A stretch of 64,000 bases of DNA from an uncultured Pseudomonadota bacterium. GTDB taxonomy: Bacteria; Myxococcota_A; UBA796; SXON01. Below are positions 2,225-46,265 of this stretch, one piece after another. The position numbers were made by a program, and so were the translations under genes. Location: positions 70,845 to 134,844 of the forward strand of contig CAIMSU010000162.1 in NCBI GenBank assembly GCA_903844155.1, given 5' to 3'. The notes beneath the pieces were generated by a model. It worked only from the letters and a program-made list of their open reading frames with translations. It was not told the origin of the DNA and made no database searches. Position 1 is the first letter of the stretch. Every line of letters begins with the position of its first letter.

Positions 2225-3288
2225 TGCGGGCCTCTGCCCGGGCTTTTTTCGCGCTCGTCGCCATGGATGTCCGCCGGATCGTACGCACGCGCTGGGCGAT
2301 GCCGCTGCTCATCGTGGTCCCGCTGTTCCTCGTGCCGATCTCGGAGCTGGCGGCGGTGCTCATCACCCGGCCGTCGGCGGCGGACACGGTCGCGATCCCG
2401 ATGGACCTGCCGGACGGGTTCCCGCTGCAGGAGCAACTGCTGGCGTTCAAGCTTACGGCTGTGCCGTCGGCGGACCCGCGCGCTGCGGTCCTGCGGGGCG
2501 AGGTGGATGCCGGGATCTACGGTATTGCTGGGTCGGTAACGTCGGGTTGGACGGCCAACGTTGCCGGCGACGTCGACTGGCGCGTTCGTCGGGCGGTGAT
2601 GACGGCGGGGCAACGCGCGCTCCTGGACGAGGCGGGTCGACGAGGTGGGGACGGGCTGACGACGGCGTCGCCGATCGTGCTGTGGCCGAAAGCCACGGCC
2701 GGCCCGCCCGAAGGCCTGTTTGACGACGTTCCGCGCGGCGTCTTGTCCGGCTGGCTCGCGCTGGTCCCGCTCTCGGTGCTGTTCTACGCGCTCCTGCCGC
2801 TGGCTGCATCCGACCGGGCGACGGGCCTCTACGAGACGCTGTTGACGATGCCGCTCTCGCCCAGACGCGCGGTCGTGGCGCGGGTCGTCGCGGTGATGGT
2901 CATCTCGCTGACGGCGACGGGCCTCTACACGGGCGGCGGGCTCACGCTCGTGGGGATGTTGCGCGCGTCGATGCTCCCGGGCCCCATCGACGTGCTCCGC
3001 GTTGCGTCCGCGCAGGCCGCGATGATCTCGGCGCTGGTCTGGGCGGGCGAGGGTGCGCAGACCAGCGCCTCGGCGATGCGCATGGGCGGGCTCATCCTGT
3101 ACGGGGCGATGGGGCTGGTGGGCGCGGCGACGGCCATTCAAGGGTCGTGGGTCCCGCTCGGGGGTCCGCTCGTCGCGAACGTCGCGAAGGACGGCTACGG
3201 GCCGTTCGCGCTGGGGCTCTTGTCGACGTCGGCGTTGACGGCTGTTTTTCTGGCGATGGCGGCGCGTGAACGCGGAAAGCCGCCATGA
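2224..3288 (+). CDS. ABC-2 type permease (NatB-like, large external loop after TM1)
   Basis: N-terminal TM helix, about 150 aa of soluble loop, then a cluster of hydrophobic helices. It is translationally coupled on both sides, with an ATGA overlap at 3285-3288. Confidence 0.75.
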   Translation: MRASARAFFALVAMDVRRIVRTRWAMPLLIVVPLFLVPISELAAVLITRPSAADTVAIPMDLPDGFPLQEQLLAFKLTAVPSADPRAAVLRGEVDAGIYGIAGSVTSGWTANVAGDVDWRVRRAVMTAGQRALLDEAGRRGGDGLTTASPIVLWPKATAGPPEGLFDDVPRGVLSGWLALVPLSVLFYALLPLAASDRATGLYETLLTMPLSPRRAVVARVVAVMVISLTATGLYTGGGLTLVGMLRASMLPGPIDVLRVASAQAAMISALVWAGEGAQTSASAMRMGGLILYGAMGLVGAATAIQGSWVPLGGPLVANVAKDGYGPFALGLLSTSALTAVFLAMAARERGKPP

Positions 3289-5141
3289 GCCGGTTCACCG
3301 CGATCCCGCCCCTCGTCCGCATGCTCGGCGCGCCCATCTATCGGCGTCGGCAGAGCATCTACTTTGGTTTTCTGTTCTCGCTGGTCTCCGGGTTCGGGGT
3401 CGGGCGATGGCCGCAAGGCTTCTCGCCGCCGGCGTTCCTCTCCGACCCGATCCCGAAGTCAGGCTGCGCCGCCGACCTACCCACCGTCGCCCTCGACGGC
3501 TGGTTCACGTCGCCCCCGTTTACCTGGCCCGGCGCCGTCACCGACGCTGCCAGCGCGGCCGTCCTCGTCAGCATGAAGGCGCCCGCGCGCTGCGAAAAGG
3601 GGTTGACGGCCGACTGCGTCTCCCGGACACGCCTCATCATCACGGCCGCCGACCCGAGCAGCGACGGGCACGACGCCACCCTCGTCCGCCAGTGCCTCGA
3701 CGACCGCCTCGCCGCCGCTCAGGCCGCCCGGCTCGCCGCCATCGGCCTCCCCGTCGACCCCGCCGCTCCCGTCACCCTGACCGTCACCGATCCGCCCGAC
3801 CCCGGCGGGCTCAACCGCGTGGCCGCCTTGCTCTTCGCCTCCCTCGCGATGAGCGCCGCCAGCGTGGGCGGCTCCACGTTGCCCTCCGCGCGGATGTCCG
3901 GCGTCCTCGAAGCCGTTTTTGCGACGGGCGTGCCGCGACGGACGATCGGCGAGGCGTTTTTCGCGTTGGTCCTGGGCTCGGGGCTTACCGCGGGGCTGGT
4001 CTCCCTCGTGGCGCTGGTCATCGGCGGGCTGTCCGGACCGGGAGTCCCGTTGGACGCCCACCTCTGGATGCTGCCTGCCGTGCTGATCCTCGCGGTCGGT
4101 GCCACGCTGGCCACGGTCGTCGGCGCCCGCAGTCTCACGGAAGGCCACGTCCGCCTCGTCCTGCCGATGTTCGGCCCGCTCCTGCTCGCTGGGCTCGCCC
4201 GCCTGCTCGACAGTCACGGCGGCCACGTCGGCGCGCTTGTGCCGTTTGGCGGCGCCGTCTCCCTGCTCCTCGACACGCGCCCCCTCGGCCTCGCGCCCGC
4301 GCTGGGGGCCTACGCGGTCTCCGGCCTGACCGCTGCTGCCTGCTACGCATACGTGATTCGGCAGTTTACAAGCGGATCCGTCGTCGAGCCGGAGTCCGGC
4401 GGCACCCTCGCGCGTCATGCCGCCGGCAACTACCTCCCCGAAGCCATCCTGCTCGGCCTGGTGCCGATCCCCGGCATGGTCCTGATCTTCGGTGTCCTGA
4501 AAAACCTCGACCCGTGGGCGATGACGGCGATGGACGTCGGCGCCTTCGCCGTCCCCGCGGTTGTCGTGCCGCTCGCGCTCGGCTTGCCAGTTCGAACGGC
4601 ACTTTCGCTACGCCTGCCGCCGACCCGGGCCTGGGTGCTCATCCCGGGCCTCGTCGCCGCCACGCTCGCCGCCGGAGGTGCCGCAATGTGGTTCGTGTCG
4701 CTGTTCTGGACCGCGCACGCCACCGAGCTCGCCGACTACGGCGATGCCGTCGCGAAGATTCCGCTGGTCATCCTCACGCTTGGCGCCGGGATCCCCGAGG
4801 ATCTCCTCTTTCGCGGGGCCGTATTGGGACTCCTGCTCCGCCGGCTCAAGCCCTCGCAGGCGATCGTCCTCCAGGCGTTGCTCTTCGCGCTGGCCCACGG
4901 GGAGCTCTACAAGCTCGCGCCAACCTTCGCTATCGGGTGCGTGCTCGGTTGGGTCTGCTGGCGGACCCGCTCCGTGCTCCCCGGGATGCTGATCCACGCC
5001 CTCCACAATGGCGTCCTCGGCGTCGGCCTTTTCGACGAATTCACCGCCTCAGACCTGGCCGGACTCACGCTCGCCGGGGCCCTTGCCGCCCTCCTGCTCG
5101 CCCGTGCACCCGCGCCGGAAGCGCCCGTTACAACCCGCTGA
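3285..5141 (+). CDS. ABC-2-like permease fused to a C-terminal CPBP (CAAX/Abi) intramembrane protease domain
   Basis: The N-terminal two-thirds has the same architecture as the preceding permease. The C-terminus carries the three CPBP motifs: PEDLLFRG (EExxxR-like), FALAHG (FxxxH) and IHALHNG (HxxxN). Confidence 0.8.
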   Translation: MSRFTAIPPLVRMLGAPIYRRRQSIYFGFLFSLVSGFGVGRWPQGFSPPAFLSDPIPKSGCAADLPTVALDGWFTSPPFTWPGAVTDAASAAVLVSMKAPARCEKGLTADCVSRTRLIITAADPSSDGHDATLVRQCLDDRLAAAQAARLAAIGLPVDPAAPVTLTVTDPPDPGGLNRVAALLFASLAMSAASVGGSTLPSARMSGVLEAVFATGVPRRTIGEAFFALVLGSGLTAGLVSLVALVIGGLSGPGVPLDAHLWMLPAVLILAVGATLATVVGARSLTEGHVRLVLPMFGPLLLAGLARLLDSHGGHVGALVPFGGAVSLLLDTRPLGLAPALGAYAVSGLTAAACYAYVIRQFTSGSVVEPESGGTLARHAAGNYLPEAILLGLVPIPGMVLIFGVLKNLDPWAMTAMDVGAFAVPAVVVPLALGLPVRTALSLRLPPTRAWVLIPGLVAATLAAGGAAMWFVSLFWTAHATELADYGDAVAKIPLVILTLGAGIPEDLLFRGAVLGLLLRRLKPSQAIVLQALLFALAHGELYKLAPTFAIGCVLGWVCWRTRSVLPGMLIHALHNGVLGVGLFDEFTASDLAGLTLAGALAALLLARAPAPEAPVTTR

Positions 5142-6465
5142 TCGTCACGCTCCACGTGTCCGGCCCCGGCACCTGCACCGGCGCCGGCTCCCACACCGCG
5201 TACCCCACCGCCACGCCACCCCCGACGACCGCGACCGCACCGGTCCAGAACCACCATTCGTGCGAAAGACCTGCCTTTTTGGCCGGCCGTGGCGTCGGCT
5301 GTGTTGTTCGCTCGTCCGTCGGCTCGTCGTCGCGCGCGCTCACCGAAGCCGGTGCAATCACCGCTTTCCGCACGATGTCCGTCGCGAGCGAGTTGTAGGC
5401 ATCGTCGATCGACGGCGCGGGGAGCCCGACGCTGTACCCGTGAAAATCGGCGTAGAGCTTCACATCCTCGCCGCCAGCACCCCACAACTGCACCTCCAGG
5501 GCGCCGCCATCGTCGATCGAGCCGGTCACGACCCAGTCGACCTTGAGCGCGTCCCGGACCTGCAGGATCTCGGCGTGCGTGAGCTGCGGCCTTCCCGCGG
5601 CCGCCTCCGCTGCAGCGAGCAGCGGCCTCACGGCAGAAGGCACGTTCGTCGCCCGCTCTTCGAGGTAGCGCGGGTCCAGCTTGGCAACGTGCATGAAGGC
5701 GTCCGCGGCGTTGGACGTCAACTGGCTCTTCGCGCACGCCGCGCCAAGCGTGTACCAGGCGTCCGCGACCTCCTCGCGCCGCCCGACCTGCGAGAGGGCG
5801 TTGGCGTGCTCGCTCACCGCCTGCGTCGCCGCGGAGATGGCACCCGGGTAGTCGCCGGAAAGGTAGAGCCTGCGGGCCTCAGCGGCGTGATCCCGGGCCG
5901 CGCGCAGGTCGCCCTCGGTCTCGGCCGAGACCCCGTCCGCGATGTCCGAACCCGGCAGCGCGTCCAGGAAGCCGGCCGTGAGAATGGCAGAGCGCAGGCC
6001 TTCAGTTGCCGTCTCTGCGTCCGCCTGGCTCGCGCCCCAGGACTCAAAATCCAGGACAGCGACGGTGGCCGCGGCGGCGGGGTTCAGCGCGGCAAGGACG
6101 AGGAGCACGGCCGCAGCGTACAGCGGATCGGGGCTGGGGGGAAGGGCGGTTTTTCGGGCATCTCCTGGGCGGCTCGCCTGGCCCGACGCCGGTCCAGAAT
6201 CCGCTGTGGAACGCCGCTTTGCTCTGGCGGCGGGTTCCGGGGCCTGGCGGTGTGGTGCGCGCGCCGCGGTCCGCGCCCGGGCCCGGCCGCGCCGCCGATC
6301 CCGGCGCTCGGCGAACCCCGCACCGGCCTCGGCGCTGATTGTTCGGCGTTCCAATGCCACGTTCGCCGACAGCCGCCGAAGCCGGCAGCCGGCACCGAAC
6401 GCGCGGGGAACGCCGCGTTGGGGGGCCATCTCCCTGCCAATCATCGTGAATTCAGGTACTTCCAC
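5128..6465 (-). CDS. Hypothetical bitopic membrane protein with a periplasmic helical/TPR-like domain; start uncertain
   Basis: The body from about 6130 down has good high-GC3 coding signal. There is a TM helix near LYAAAVLLVLAAL and a second near the C-terminus (WWFWTGAVAVVGGGVAVGYAVW). The first roughly 110 codons are Arg-rich with weaker GC3. In-frame starts exist only between about 6357 and 6465. It overlaps the preceding gene's 3' end convergently by 14 nt. Confidence 0.6.
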   Translation of the reverse strand: MEVPEFTMIGREMAPQRGVPRAFGAGCRLRRLSANVALERRTISAEAGAGFAERRDRRRGRARARTAARAPHRQAPEPAARAKRRSTADSGPASGQASRPGDARKTALPPSPDPLYAAAVLLVLAALNPAAAATVAVLDFESWGASQADAETATEGLRSAILTAGFLDALPGSDIADGVSAETEGDLRAARDHAAEARRLYLSGDYPGAISAATQAVSEHANALSQVGRREEVADAWYTLGAACAKSQLTSNAADAFMHVAKLDPRYLEERATNVPSAVRPLLAAAEAAAGRPQLTHAEILQVRDALKVDWVVTGSIDDGGALEVQLWGAGGEDVKLYADFHGYSVGLPAPSIDDAYNSLATDIVRKAVIAPASVSARDDEPTDERTTQPTPRPAKKAGLSHEWWFWTGAVAVVGGGVAVGYAVWEPAPVQVPGPDTWSVTISGL

Positions 6466-6559
6466 GTTGCTTGTTTGCGCAGCGCTCCCAATGGCCCCCA
6501 GGGCGTCGACGACGACCGTGGCCGCGCGCGTTGGCTTGTCTTCCGCGCCCGGTTGAGGT

Positions 6560-6823
6560 CATGGGGGTGGTTTTGGCGCGACTCGGGACTCAAGGGGGGC
6601 GTCTTGGCGCGGCCCGCGTGCCAACGCGCCAGGTGGACGTCGGCCGGGTCGCGCGTGACCGCCAAAATGCAGGTTGCTCCGTTCGGGCGAGCCCCGCGCT
6701 TCCCCCCGGTGGGCCACCCAGCGCCCGATTCCGGGTCGCCCACCTCCTTCAGCAGCCGCGGCGAACGAGCCCGCGCCAACGCTGGGGCCATGAGTCCCGC
6801 ATCGCGCCAAAACTGCACCCATG
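6560..6823. repeat. Long imperfect inverted repeat (33-nt arms, 28/33 identical, about 198-nt spacer)
   Basis: The left arm 6560-6592 is catgggggtggttttggcgcgactcgggactca. The reverse complement of the right arm 6791-6823 is catgggtgcagttttggcgcgatgcgggactca. Weaker symmetry continues inward: gcgtcttggcgcgg versus gcgttggcgcggg. Confidence 0.85.
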
Positions 6824-6888
6824 GCTCCATCGCCGGCGGTGGGACCTGCTCGCGCGGAACCGGGTGTCAAAGCCTGGGCAGGTGCGAA

Positions 6889-7387
6889 ATGCTCCTCCTC
6901 CAAGCGGCCGTCTTTGCGTGCGTCGACGGGAGGGGCCCCGGACACGCCCACGCGTCCGACTCCGCCGCCAGGGCCGACTCCGTCGTCGACGCCGTCACGA
7001 CCGCCGACTCCGTGCCGGAGAGCACCGCCGAAAGCGTCAGCGACAGCGTCCCCACCCCTTACAGGCCCGTCGCAGTGTGCACGGCCGAGCCGCTGGTCGT
7101 CGAGGCGCCTGTGACCACCATCTCGTAGTTCGGAAGCGACTCCCATGCCCTGGAGGGCGCGACGATCGCTGACTACGACTGGGAGATCGCGTCCGCGCCG
7201 ACCGGCTCGGGCGCCGGGCCCGTGCGCGCCTGGGCTACATCAACGCTGATCGCCGATCTCCGTGGCGGTGCTGATCTACGAGGATGGCGTCCTCACCTGG
7301 ACGGACACGCGCGACGTCGACGGCGAGGCCGACTATGCGTGGTTCGCCACGGTGGATTGGCCGAACGGTGCAGTGACGTCGTTGTGA
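6889..7387 (+). pseudogene. Decayed lipoprotein gene with a PKD/Ig-like fragment (in-frame TAG plus a frameshift)
   Basis: ATG at 6889 gives MLLLQAAVFAC with a lipobox. An in-frame TAG lies at 7126-7128, inside ...VVEAPVTTIS*FGSDSHALEGATIADYDWEIASAPTGSGAG, which is a PKD-like pattern. Coding-like sequence resumes in another frame from about 7268 (VLIYEDGVLTWTDTRDVDGEADYAWFATVDWPNGAVTSL) and stops at 7385-7387. Confidence 0.5.
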
Positions 7388-7405
7388 CGCGCGGGCGCTC
7401 GCTCG

Positions 7406-7876
7406 CTACTCCTCGACCCCGTCCGCCTGCGGCGTAAACCCCCGTTCGATCGGACGATTCTCACGTGGCAGCCGTGGCCCAGCGCTGGCTGCGTGCTCGA
7501 CGCTGGTGTACACGCGCCCCTCCACGCGCGCCCAGGGATGCAGTCTCCCGGCTGCCCGAGCAAAATCCCGTGCTTGCGCCTCGACTTTGTGGAGATGTCG
7601 CGCCTCGGCCCGGCGCTCGGTGACCTTGACCTCCACAGCAAGGAGCCGGTCGTGACCGTCGAAGTACAGCAGGTCGCCGGCATGGCCGGCGCGCGCCGAC
7701 CATTCCAGACCGATCAAGTACGGGAAGTCGGGGATCAGCGCGCCGCTGTTCAGCACCAGATGCCGCCGCAGCGCCCCCTCGGCCGAGAGGTCCCAGTCGC
7801 AGCCGGCGACATAGGCGTGCAACACCGAATCCCGGCGTTGCGCCTCCTCAAGCGGGATGGGGCCGCCGGCCGGCAC
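7406..7876 (-). CDS. Hypothetical protein, possible PD-(D/E)XK nuclease fold
   Basis: The GTG start shares 1 nt with the mdh stop (TAGTG). The motif GDLLYFDGHDRLLAVEVK fits D...ExK. GC3 is high through most of the ORF. Confidence 0.6.
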   Translation of the reverse strand: MPAGGPIPLEEAQRRDSVLHAYVAGCDWDLSAEGALRRHLVLNSGALIPDFPYLIGLEWSARAGHAGDLLYFDGHDRLLAVEVKVTERRAEARHLHKVEAQARDFARAAGRLHPWARVEGRVYTSVEHAASAGPRLPRENRPIERGFTPQADGVEE

Positions 7877-8868
7877 TACGCCAGCAGGTCCTTGACGGTC
7901 TCGCGCTCGTTGACCAATTCCTGGGTCGTCGCCGCGATCTTCGCCCTGGCAAAGTCGTCGTGCTCAAGACCCTCGACGATCTGGTAGTCGCCCTTGCCGG
8001 ACGTGACCGGGAAGCTGAAGATAAGGCCCTTCGGAACACCATACTGTCCGTCGGACCACACGCCCATGGAGGTGAAGGTTGCCGCATCTGAGGGAGAAGC
8101 GCTGCCGTGCCACAGGGTGCTCATGTGGTCGATCGCCGCGGCCGCTGCGGAAGCCGCGGAAGACTGGCCGCGCGCCTCGATGATCGCCTTGCCGCGCGTG
8201 GCCACGGTCTTGAGGAAGTCGCCCTCCAGCCAGTCGCGCCCGACCTGCTCGGTCACCGCCTGGCCGCGAACCTTCGCGTGCGCGAAGTCCGGGTACATCG
8301 TGTCGGAGTGGTTGCCCCAGATGCCGAGGTTCGAAACCTCACCGGGGAGGCTTCCCAGCTTTTTGGCGAGCTGCGCCTTCGCGCGGTTCTCGTCCAGCCG
8401 GGTCATGGCGTGGAAGCGGTTCTTCGGGATGCCGGGGGCGGAGTGCGCGGCGATGAGGGCGTTGGTGTTGCAGGGGTTGCCGACCACGAGAACACGTAGG
8501 TCGTCCGCCGCGTTGTCGTTGAGCGCGCGGCCCTGCCCGGTGAAGATCGGGCCGTTGGCGGAGATCAGGTCGGCCCGGTTCATGTCCTTGGTGCGCGGGC
8601 GGGAGCCGACGAGAAACGCCTGGTTGATACCGGAGAAAGCCTTGTTCGGGTCGTCTGAGATCTCGACGCCGTGCAGGAGCGGGAACGCCGAGTCGAGCAG
8701 CTCCATCACCACGCCTTCGAGCGCTTTCATGCCGGGCGGGATCTCCAGGAGCTGGAGGATGATCGGCTGGTCCTTGCCGTAGCAGTCGCCCGCGGCGAGG
8801 CGAAAGAGCAGGGCGTAGCCGATGTTTCCAGCGGCGCCGGTGACAGAGATGCGGATGGGGGCGGTCAT
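7876..8868 (-). CDS. mdh: Malate dehydrogenase (NAD-dependent, LDH-like type 2 family)
   Basis: [25 protein letters not shown] Rossmann N-terminus, plus [18 protein letters not shown] and IWGNHS motifs. The start was trimmed to the ATG at 8868, which has GGAG 9 nt upstream. Confidence 0.93.
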
Positions 8869-46179: not shown

Positions 46180-46265
46180 TGGTGCGCGAAGCGGGACTTG
46201 AACCCGCACGGGAGTTACCCCACTAGCACCTCAAACTAGCGCGTCTACCATTCCGCCACCCGCGC
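46180..46265 (-). tRNA. tRNA-Leu (anticodon GAG), CCA encoded
   Basis: GCGCGGGTGGCGGAATGGTAGACGCGCTAGTTTGAGGTGCTAGTGGGGTAACTCCCGTGCGGGTTCAAGTCCCGCTTCGCGCACCA. It has a 7-bp acceptor stem, a CTAGT/GCTAG anticodon stem with loop TTGAGGT, a long variable arm and a GCGGG-TTCAAGT-CCCGC T-arm. Confidence 0.92.

What the first reader, a model, noticed from the sequence alone, without database searches (positions are those of the whole stretch)
6466..6888. Unusually long non-coding gap containing a 33-nt-arm inverted repeat
No frame between about 6466 and 6888 looks coding. The gap may extend down to about 6130 if the Arg-rich 5' part of the neighbouring ORF is not translated. Inside it, 6560-6592 and 6791-6823 are inverted copies with 28/33 identities. 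Degenerate symmetry continues about 25 nt further inward, enclosing roughly 150-200 nt. Perfect 12-mers such as gttttggcgcga / tcgcgccaaaac are unlikely by chance in a region this small. Candidate explanations are a MITE-like or IS remnant, a long structured RNA, or an inverted duplication of a gene 5' end. Both arms begin with an ATG and read MG(V/A)VLAR(L/C)GT..., pointing at each other.
Basis: seen in the sequence. Interest (0 to 1): 0.55.

Follow-up and report, generated by a model that had tools for sequence, protein, structure and literature searches.

The report
Orphan inverted repeat of four sites
A real but single-copy 264-276 bp inverted repeat, built from four copies of one 21-nt motif, sits in a 1.3 kb stretch of orphan DNA in an uncultured myxobacterium; it most resembles the two ends of a small dead transposon and is a modest curiosity.

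Summary
Arms 6560-6612 and 6771-6823 are the best inverted repeat in the 64 kb window, and 0 of 500 shuffles reach its score. The non-coding gap is longer than reported, 6109-6888, because the neighbouring TPR gene starts at 6108.

Each arm is two tandem 31-nt units. All four units share CAWGG-N5-G-N2-TTGGCGCG. That motif occurs nowhere else in the window. Outside the motif the inner units are unrelated, so this looks like four protein-binding sites rather than a decaying duplication.

The repeat lies in a 1.3 kb insertion (6109-7405) that five related lineages lack. The insertion also holds a disrupted orphan ORF.

Nothing similar turned up in Rfam, Pfam, 5.8 billion proteins (all six frames), genome, metagenome or viral contigs, plasmids or phages.

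My best reading, at confidence 0.4, is a relic non-autonomous transposon with compound ends: two transposase sites per end, as in IS21, Mu and Tn7. It has no target-site duplication, no second copy and no transposase.

The rivals are an operator array with DNA looping, an invertible promoter, an RNA hairpin and a neutral palindrome. Duplication of a gene 5' end is rejected. Interest is low to moderate.

The parts
6109..6888 (.). Non-coding gap of 780 nt between the TPR gene start (6108, - strand) and the orphan ORF start (6889, + strand).
   Evidence: Gene calls on the source scaffold; homologue lengths mostly 319-344 aa among the closer relatives; codon log-odds at or below about 0.1 in all frames; flat GC1/2/3; no Pfam hit in six frames.
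6554..6829 (.). Candidate element at its widest, 276 bp. It is bounded by 5'-TG and CA-3' at mirror positions 6 nt outside the outer motifs (TGAGGT-CATGG / TGGAGC-CATGG).
   Evidence: Read directly from the sequence. The repeat fades beyond these positions. No flanking direct repeat: CCGGT on the left, TCGCC on the right.
6560..6612 (+). Left arm. Unit A is 6560-6590 (motif 6560-6580). Unit B is 6591-6621 (motif 6591-6611). The two are tandem with a 31-nt period.
   Evidence: the repeat finder I1 and D1; motif search; nhmmer E-values 9e-8 and 1e-6.
6771..6823 (-). Right arm. Unit C is 6823-6793 (motif 6823-6803). Unit D is 6792-6762 (motif 6792-6772). The two are tandem with a 31-nt period on the - strand.
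   Evidence: the repeat finder I1 and D3; motif search; nhmmer E-values 1e-8 and 8e-6.
6613..6770 (.). Interior of 158 nt. It has no coding signal and no further motif copy.
   Evidence: Unit scan finds no score above the null apart from windows that overlap units A and D themselves.
6604..6624 (.). Small palindrome TTGGCGCG-GCCCG-CGTGCCAA. The core of unit B faces an inverted copy that differs by one base.
   Evidence: Sequence; it forms the 8-bp hairpin in the minimum-free-energy fold. Its significance is untested.
6109..7405 (.). Lineage-specific insertion of about 1.3 kb between the 156-aa gene and the TPR gene. It contains the repeat and the orphan ORF.
   Evidence: In L003/L004, L006/L007, L008, L043 and L044/L045 the TPR gene starts 0-35 nt after the preceding co-directional gene. 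The spacer CGGCTACACTCTG(C/T)TCAGGAG is conserved between L004 and L008.
6889..7387 (+). Disrupted orphan ORF. 79 codons are called (MLLLQAAVFAC...). An in-frame TAG sits at 7126-7128. Coding signal continues to about 7224, then shifts to the +1 frame and runs to the stop at 7387.
   Evidence: GC3 is 0.91, 0.91 and 0.81 in the three segments; codon log-odds; the same 79-aa product is on 7 contigs; no homologue; no Pfam hit.
5128..6108 (-). TPR-repeat protein gene, 326 aa. It is the left neighbour of the gap.
7406..7876 (-). Conserved 156-aa gene with no Pfam family. In relatives it directly precedes the TPR gene.
   Evidence: 69-72% identity to the relatives.

Best explanation
The repeat is an array of four binding sites for one sequence-specific DNA-binding protein. 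Two sites lie in tandem on each side, and the two pairs face each other. This is the layout of the two ends of a small non-autonomous DDE transposon with compound terminal inverted repeats, the 'L1-L2 ... R2-R1' arrangement of IS21, Mu and Tn7. In an active element a transposase tetramer would bind the two repeats at each end, synapse the ends, and cleave after the terminal CA. Here the element has no transposase gene and has diverged arms, so I infer it is an immobile relic. It arrived with, or inserted into, a 1.3 kb piece of orphan DNA that split an otherwise tight operon junction. Shown: the four-site architecture, the motif-only conservation, the insertion, and the absence of coding capacity. 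Inferred: that the binding protein is or was a transposase, and that the element is dead.
For: There are four matches to CAWGG-N5-G-N2-TTGGCGCG, all inside 6560-6823, where 0.08 are expected in 64 kb. Both arms have the same 31-nt unit period. Unit identities out of 31 are A-C 26, A-B 21, B-C 19, C-D 18, A-D 16 and B-D 16, with 13 invariant columns that form the bipartite motif. Outside the motif, unit D matches A or B at only 3/18, which is random level. The sites therefore share a recognition motif rather than residual homology. The motif is long (21 nt), bipartite and not dyad-symmetric; from general knowledge this is typical of transposases with two DNA-binding domains. IS5376, an IS21-family member, has about 54-nt terminal repeats, each made of two 23-bp direct repeats. 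It ends in TG...CA, and IstA needs both repeats (PMC10122671 and its supplement). Here the arms are 53 nt with two repeats each, and TG/CA lie at mirror positions 6 nt outside the outer motifs. The outer units are more alike than the inner ones, as expected if the terminal sites carry extra constraint. The interior is non-coding. The element lies in DNA that five related lineages lack, next to a decaying orphan gene.
Against: There is no target-site duplication at 6560/6823 or at 6554/6829 (sequence). There is no second copy in the 64 kb window. A genome scan of 185,579 species representatives gave only one chance-like hit. Two metagenome scans found nothing. The viral contig scan gave single chance hits only. 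Plasmids and phages gave no match to the repeat. Proteins called in any of six frames gave no hit. No transposase gene lies within +/-10 kb. The sequence has no similarity to the IS5376 ends, and the period is 31 rather than about 24. The TG/CA coincidence has roughly 3% chance probability once the freedom in choosing the distance is allowed for. The rest of the source genome could not be searched.
Confidence: 0.4

Rival explanations
1. Operator array for a transcription factor. Two pairs of sites about 200 bp apart are bound cooperatively and loop the DNA, as AraC does with I1-I2/O2. The loop would control the orphan ORF at 6889 and/or the displaced TPR gene.
For: Conservation is limited to the motif. 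The core centres at 6576.5, 6607.5, 6775.5 and 6806.5 are spaced 31, 168 and 31 nt, about 3, 16 and 3 helical turns, so all sites lie on one face (computed). The array ends 66 nt upstream of the ORF start at 6889. A single-locus motif fits a dedicated regulator.
Against: No regulator gene lies in the insertion or next to it; the nearest is a two-component pair several kb away. The motif lacks dyad symmetry, and a 31-nt period is unusual for known direct-repeat binders. No sigma-70-like promoter was found, and sigma-54-like matches are below chance level. The only adjacent + strand gene is disrupted. The extra A-C similarity outside the motif (13/18) is not explained.
Confidence: 0.2
2. Functionless quasi-palindrome. 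A tandem duplication followed by an inverted duplication, through replication template switching, in junk DNA that is now drifting.
For: It is single-copy everywhere searched. It lies in decaying orphan DNA. No function-linked feature was found.
Against: Under one inverted duplication event, B-D should be about as similar as A-C. They are 16/31 against 26/31. Unit D keeps 13/13 motif positions while the other 18 are at random level, and matching those 13 positions in register by chance has a probability of about 1e-7.
Confidence: 0.15
3. Invertible promoter (inverton). A site-specific recombinase encoded elsewhere flips the 160-200 bp between the arms and switches expression of the exported-protein-like ORF at 6889 on and off.
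For: Inverted repeats flank a segment under 300 bp, the size range of most known invertons (PMC11602134). The position is immediately upstream of an ORF with a hydrophobic N-terminus ending in Cys. Invertons have been predicted in Myxococcota.
Against: No recombinase gene lies within +/-10 kb. No promoter-like site was found in the segment. The arms are only 85% and 52% identical and are built from tandem direct sub-repeats rather than dyad half-sites. Both independent assemblies that could be read, ENA and Logan, have the same orientation. The downstream gene is disrupted.
Confidence: 0.1
4. Structured RNA. When transcribed, the long imperfect hairpin acts as an mRNA-stabilising or attenuating element, or as an sRNA. 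On the - strand it would separate the MDH/156-aa transcript from the TPR gene.
For: The predicted fold is -172 kcal/mol against -150 +/- 5 for shuffles, z = -4.2 on the + strand and z = -2.9 on the - strand.
Against: No Rfam family reaches threshold, and the weak hits have E >= 0.4. The z-scores follow trivially from the inverted repeat. G.U counts give no strand preference: 2 against 1 in the outer arm. No terminator-like site lies in the gap; the only one found in 5900-7600 is inside the TPR gene. No homologues exist for a covariation test. Motif-only conservation of the inner units leaves 7 of 20 inner-arm positions (6593-6612) as non-pairing mismatches (12 Watson-Crick, 1 G.U).
Confidence: 0.07

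Closest known systems
IS21-family compound terminal inverted repeats (L1/L2 ... R2/R1, e.g. IS5376), with the analogous multi-site ends of Mu and Tn7, and MITEs derived from such elements
   Same: The arms are about 53-54 nt, and each holds two direct repeats of a bipartite motif of about 21-23 nt. The two arms are inverted relative to each other. TG...CA lies a few nt outside the outermost repeat. The interior is short and non-coding, as in a MITE. (PMC10122671, compared.)
   Different: The repeat period is 31 nt rather than about 24. There is no sequence similarity to the IS5376 ends. There is no 4-8 bp target-site duplication, no istA/istB or other transposase nearby, and only one copy is detectable.
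Invertons (invertible promoters flanked by inverted repeats)
   Same: Inverted repeats enclose a segment under 300 bp directly upstream of a putative exported-protein gene (PMC11602134).
   Different: No invertase gene is nearby, no promoter is detected, the arms are imperfect and made of tandem sub-repeats, and no alternative orientation is seen in the two assemblies available.
AraC-type looping operators (paired asymmetric half-sites plus a distal site about 200 bp away)
   Same: Asymmetric sites occur in tandem pairs, the second pair is about 170-230 bp away, and the spacings are integral numbers of helical turns. The AraC comparison is from my own knowledge.
   Different: No regulator gene is adjacent, the period is 31 nt rather than 21, and no promoter is identified.
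Myxobacterial retron msr-msd regions, whose a1/a2 inverted repeats (about 34 nt in Mx162, recalled from memory and not checked here) flank the msr-msd region
   Same: An inverted repeat of about 33 nt encloses about 200 nt in a member of the Myxococcota.
   Different: No reverse-transcriptase ORF is present in any frame and there is no Rfam hit.

Membership tests
MITE / non-autonomous DDE transposon | Terminal inverted repeats bounding a short element | tested here: met
   53-nt arms at 75% complementarity, 33-nt core at 85%; 0 of 500 shuffles reach the score.
MITE / non-autonomous DDE transposon | No coding capacity, size about 100-400 bp | tested here: met
   264-276 bp; no coding signal, Pfam hit or homologue.
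MITE / non-autonomous DDE transposon | Target-site duplication abutting both ends | tested here: not met
   The flanks are CCGGT against TCGCC at 6554/6829 and GGTCA against TGGCT at 6562/6821. No abutting direct repeat is present.
MITE / non-autonomous DDE transposon | Multiple copies in the genome | tested here: inconclusive
   There are no other copies in 64 kb or in any public collection searched. The rest of the source MAG could not be read.
MITE / non-autonomous DDE transposon | An autonomous partner with matching ends | not testable with these tools
   The source genome is not in the searchable DNA collections. The exact-pattern scans found none.
IS21 family | Each terminal repeat is composed of two or more direct repeats bound by the transposase | tested here: met
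   Two units per arm at a 31-nt period. Binding itself was not tested.
IS21 family | Terminal 5'-TG ... CA-3' | tested here: inconclusive
   TG at 6554-6555 and CA at 6828-6829 sit at mirror positions, but this could be chance (about 3%) and the true termini are unknown.
IS21 family | istA (DDE transposase) and istB (AAA+ ATPase) genes | tested here: not met
   None lies in the element or within +/-10 kb. This is expected for a non-autonomous derivative, so it does not decide membership.
Inverton | Both orientations present in a population | not testable with these tools
   Only assemblies can be read. ENA scaffold_27 and Logan ERR4194714 are identical in orientation.
Inverton | Promoter inside the invertible segment | tested here: inconclusive
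   No sigma-70 consensus site was found in 5900-7600. The consensus may not apply in this phylum.
Inverton | Site-specific recombinase, usually nearby | tested here: not met
   None lies within +/-10 kb. A trans-acting enzyme is not excluded.
Rfam RNA families (all 4227, whatever they include) | Covariance-model match at the gathering score | tested here: not met
   Only a tRNA at 46183-46265 reaches threshold. The best hits in the region have E >= 0.4.
Structured RNA (new) | Compensatory base changes in homologues | not testable with these tools
   No homologous copy was found anywhere.

The most novel reading that the evidence does not exclude
The four-site array is a live switch rather than a relic. 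One possibility is an invertible or looping control region recognised by a recombinase or regulator encoded elsewhere. The other is the first sighting of a new compound-end transposon family in uncultured Myxococcota, with a 21-nt bipartite end motif CAWGG-N8-TTGGCGCG at a 31-nt period.
Probability: 0.12. Interest if true: 0.5.

Novelty: new member of a known kind. Interest (0 to 1): 0.25.

Why it matters
If it is a transposon relic, it records how a 1.3 kb piece of foreign DNA split a conserved operon junction (MDH - 156-aa gene - TPR gene) in one uncultured myxobacterial lineage. It also supplies an end motif that could lead to an undescribed mobile element once the full genome is searched. 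If it is instead a live regulatory or invertible switch, it would be an unusual four-site architecture in a phylum where such switches have only been predicted. In either case the practical consequence is small. It is one degenerate copy with no detectable relatives.

Tried and rejected
1. Coding explanations.
- ORF129 (6441-6830, - strand) has marginal GC3 periodicity but no homologue among 1.84 billion representatives and poor codon usage.
- The MG.VLAR frames and all six frames of 6535-6850 have no hit at E <= 1 in 5.8 billion proteins.
- Six-frame Pfam on 6109-7405 was empty.

2. My first impression that 7129-7387 encodes a PKD-like domain was not supported by Pfam, even at E <= 1. I dropped it.

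3. Sigma-54 promoter. The TTGGCACGCGGGCCGC on the - strand at 6609-6624 has three mismatches to TGGCACG-N4-TTGCW. Two-mismatch sites are already below chance frequency in the window.

4. A fifth degenerate unit at about 6646-6683, seen by eye, scored no better than the null.

5. Retron. There is no RT ORF and no Rfam hit.

6. Paralogous origin of the insertion. blastn of 6109-7405 against the rest of the window found nothing. The tblastx output from the same call was low-complexity noise and I discarded it.

7. The single genome-contig hit, in a Marmoricola MAG (L009), and the 32 viral hits each carry one unit only and are chance.

8. The plasmid hit H1 covers 69 nt at 77% identity inside the orphan ORF's low-complexity part and is irrelevant.

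9. I tried to see alternative orientations or other assemblies through the 79-aa ORF look-up. All 7 contigs were collapsed into one place.

Full report
**Source and setting.** The window is about 69% G+C. It is identical to part of an ENA metagenome scaffold, BUCK21-1_SAMEA6872997_METAG-scaffold_27 (203 kb), and to a Logan contig from ERR4194714. Homologues of the neighbouring genes come from Myxococcota/Myxococcales MAGs. Around the finding the genes are:
- an Rce1-like membrane protein (3285-5141, +);
- a TPR-repeat protein (- strand);
- the gap;
- a 79-codon orphan ORF (6889-7128, +);
- a conserved 156-aa gene (7406-7876, -);
- malate dehydrogenase (7876-8868, -).

**Check of the observation.**
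- 6560-6592 pairs with 6791-6823 at 28/33.
- The repeat finder extends the arms to 53 nt (6560-6612 / 6771-6823, 75% complementary, 158 nt apart).
- An ungapped score of 18 is reached by 0 of 500 dinucleotide shuffles of the gap (mean 10.7, maximum 15).
- It is the highest-scoring inverted repeat in the whole 64 kb; the next best scores 14.

The gap is truly non-coding and longer than reported.
- The gene caller and 19 homologues of 208-383 aa (the closer ones, >=51% identity, are mostly 319-344 aa) place the TPR gene start at 6108.
- The Arg-rich upstream extension has flat GC1/2/3 of 0.77/0.71/0.72 and negative codon log-odds.
- The gap is therefore 6109-6888, 780 nt. It is the largest intergenic space in the 21 kb annotated around it.

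**Anatomy.** Each arm consists of two tandem 31-nt units. Units A (6560) and B (6591) are on the + strand. Units C (6823) and D (6792) are on the - strand.
- All four units match CAWGG-N5-G-N2-TTGGCGCG.
- With one mismatch allowed, the window holds exactly these four matches, where 0.08 are expected.
- A profile of the units finds nothing else in 64 kb.
- A gapped scan of the insertion finds no fifth unit.

The pairwise identities out of 31 are A-C 26, A-B 21, B-C 19, C-D 18, A-D 16 and B-D 16. Thirteen columns are invariant, and these are exactly the bipartite motif. Outside the motif, unit D matches A or B at 3 of 18 positions, which is random level.

This pattern does not fit a single inverted duplication followed by neutral decay. 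Under that history B-D should resemble A-C. It is what one expects of four recognition sites for one protein.

The core centres are spaced 31, 168 and 31 nt, close to 3, 16 and 3 helical turns. TG and CA occur at mirror positions 6 nt outside the outer motifs (6554-6555 and 6828-6829). No direct repeat abuts any plausible pair of ends.

**Context.** The repeat sits in an insertion.
- In five related lineages the TPR gene starts 0-35 nt after the preceding co-directional gene. These are L003/L004, L006/L007, L008, L043 and L044/L045, with TPR protein identity of 51-64%.
- In three of those loci (L003, L004 and L008, two of the five lineages) the preceding gene is the 156-aa homologue (69-72% identity), followed by a conserved spacer CGGCTACACTCTG(C/T)TCAGGAG.
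- Only the window has 1.3 kb (6109-7405) at this junction.

The insertion has no paralogue in the window. It has no similarity to plasmids or phages beyond one trivial 69-nt match. It has no Pfam domain in any frame.

Its right part is a disrupted orphan gene.
- The 79-codon ORF ends at a TAG, but GC3 stays at 0.91 in the same frame for 32 more codons.
- The signal then moves to the +1 frame (GC3 0.81) and runs to the stop at 7387.
- The same 79-aa product is encoded on seven contigs, so the stop is not an assembly slip.
- A reconstruction of this gene has no homologue.

**Searches for relatives of the repeat.** All came back empty.
- Rfam at gathering thresholds finds only a tRNA at 46183-46265. 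Permissive hits in the region have E >= 0.4.
- GTTTTGGCGCGANNCGGGACTCA finds one single-unit, chance-like match among 185,579 species representatives and none in JGI metagenomes.
- The two-unit motif pattern finds none in JGI metagenomes.
- A one-unit pattern gives 32 single hits in viral contigs, none with a second unit.
- ORF129 has no hit in 1.84 billion representative proteins.
- A concatenation of all six frames of 6535-6850 has no hit at E <= 1 in 5.8 billion proteins.

That last result carries some weight. The protein collection includes the source MAG, and spurious ORFs are often called across repeats in high-GC genomes. However, the DNA of the rest of the source genome could not be searched. 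Multi-copy status in that genome therefore remains open.

**Interpretation.** The architecture is two direct repeats of a long, asymmetric, bipartite motif per arm, with arms of about 53 nt, inverted ends, a TG...CA boundary and a short non-coding interior. This is the layout of compound transposon ends.

For the IS21 family, the paper on IstA states that each terminal repeat of IS5376 contains two 23-bp direct repeats (L1/L2, R1/R2). It also states that IstA needs both repeats, that the ends finish in CA, and that insertions carry 5-bp duplications. It notes that Mu and Tn7 ends are likewise multi-site (PMC10122671). The IS5376 ends are 54 nt long.

I therefore rate a relic non-autonomous transposon with compound ends as the most likely reading, at 0.4. 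The weaknesses are that there is no target-site duplication, no second copy and no transposase, that the period is 31 rather than about 24 nt, and that there is no sequence similarity to the IS5376 ends. Membership of the IS21 family specifically is not established. The claim is about architecture only.

**Rivals.**
- Transcription-factor operator array with looping (0.2). It fits the helical phasing and the position 66 nt upstream of the ORF at 6889. It lacks a nearby regulator, dyad symmetry and any detectable promoter.
- Functionless quasi-palindrome (0.15). It fits the single-copy, junk-DNA setting but not the motif-only conservation.
- Inverton (0.1). It fits the size range (PMC11602134) and the position. 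It has no nearby recombinase, no promoter and imperfect arms, and the two readable assemblies share one orientation.
- RNA hairpin (0.07). It rests only on fold z-scores of -4.2 and -2.9, which follow from the repeat itself. G.U counts do not favour a strand.
I reject it.

**Verdict.** It is nevertheless a single degenerate copy in decaying orphan DNA, with no relatives anywhere that I could search. I file it as a probable new, dead member of a known kind: a small transposon with compound ends. Interest is 0.25. About 12% probability remains that it is a live switch or the first trace of an undescribed element family.

Noticed in passing
window 6109-7405: A 1.3 kb lineage-specific insertion splits a gene junction that is tight (0-35 nt) in five related lineages. 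In L003, L004 and L008 the junction is the 156-aa gene followed by the TPR gene. The insertion probably uncouples the TPR gene from the upstream MDH operon.
   Followed up: yes
window 6889-7387 (+): Orphan ORF with a hydrophobic N-terminus ending in Cys (MLLLQAAVFAC). It has an in-frame TAG at 7126-7128 and a later frameshift, while GC3 stays at 0.81-0.91. This looks like a recently disrupted gene of about 165 codons. It has no homologue anywhere and is identical on 7 contigs.
   Followed up: partly
window 7406-7876 (-): Conserved 156-aa protein (69-72% identity in relatives) with no Pfam family. By eye, its GDLL(F/Y)FDG...LLAVE(I/V)KVT segment resembles a PD-(D/E)XK nuclease motif. This was not tested.
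   Followed up: no
window 6604-6624: Palindrome TTGGCGCG-GCCCG-CGTGCCAA. The core of unit B faces an inverted copy that differs by one base. TTGGC/GCCAA pentamers are enriched across 6530-6810 (7 counted by eye, about 0.7 expected by my own rough estimate; neither figure comes from a tool run).
   Followed up: partly
window 6208-6221 and 6407-6420: Direct repeat GGAACGCCGC(T/G)TTG (13/14) with 199-nt spacing, inside the very GC-rich (77%) left part of the gap. It may be chance.
   Followed up: no
window 5128-5141: The 3' ends of the convergent Rce1-like gene (+) and TPR gene (-) overlap by 14 nt. The same overlap is called in the closest relative (L003/L004).
   Followed up: no
window 46183-46265 (-): A tRNA gene. 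It is the only Rfam match at gathering score in the 64 kb.
   Followed up: no
window 5008-7128 (+): One + strand frame stays open for 706 codons across the antisense of the TPR gene, the whole gap and the orphan ORF. Codon scores show it is not coding upstream of 6889. It is a reminder of how long spurious ORFs can run at 70% G+C.
   Followed up: yes
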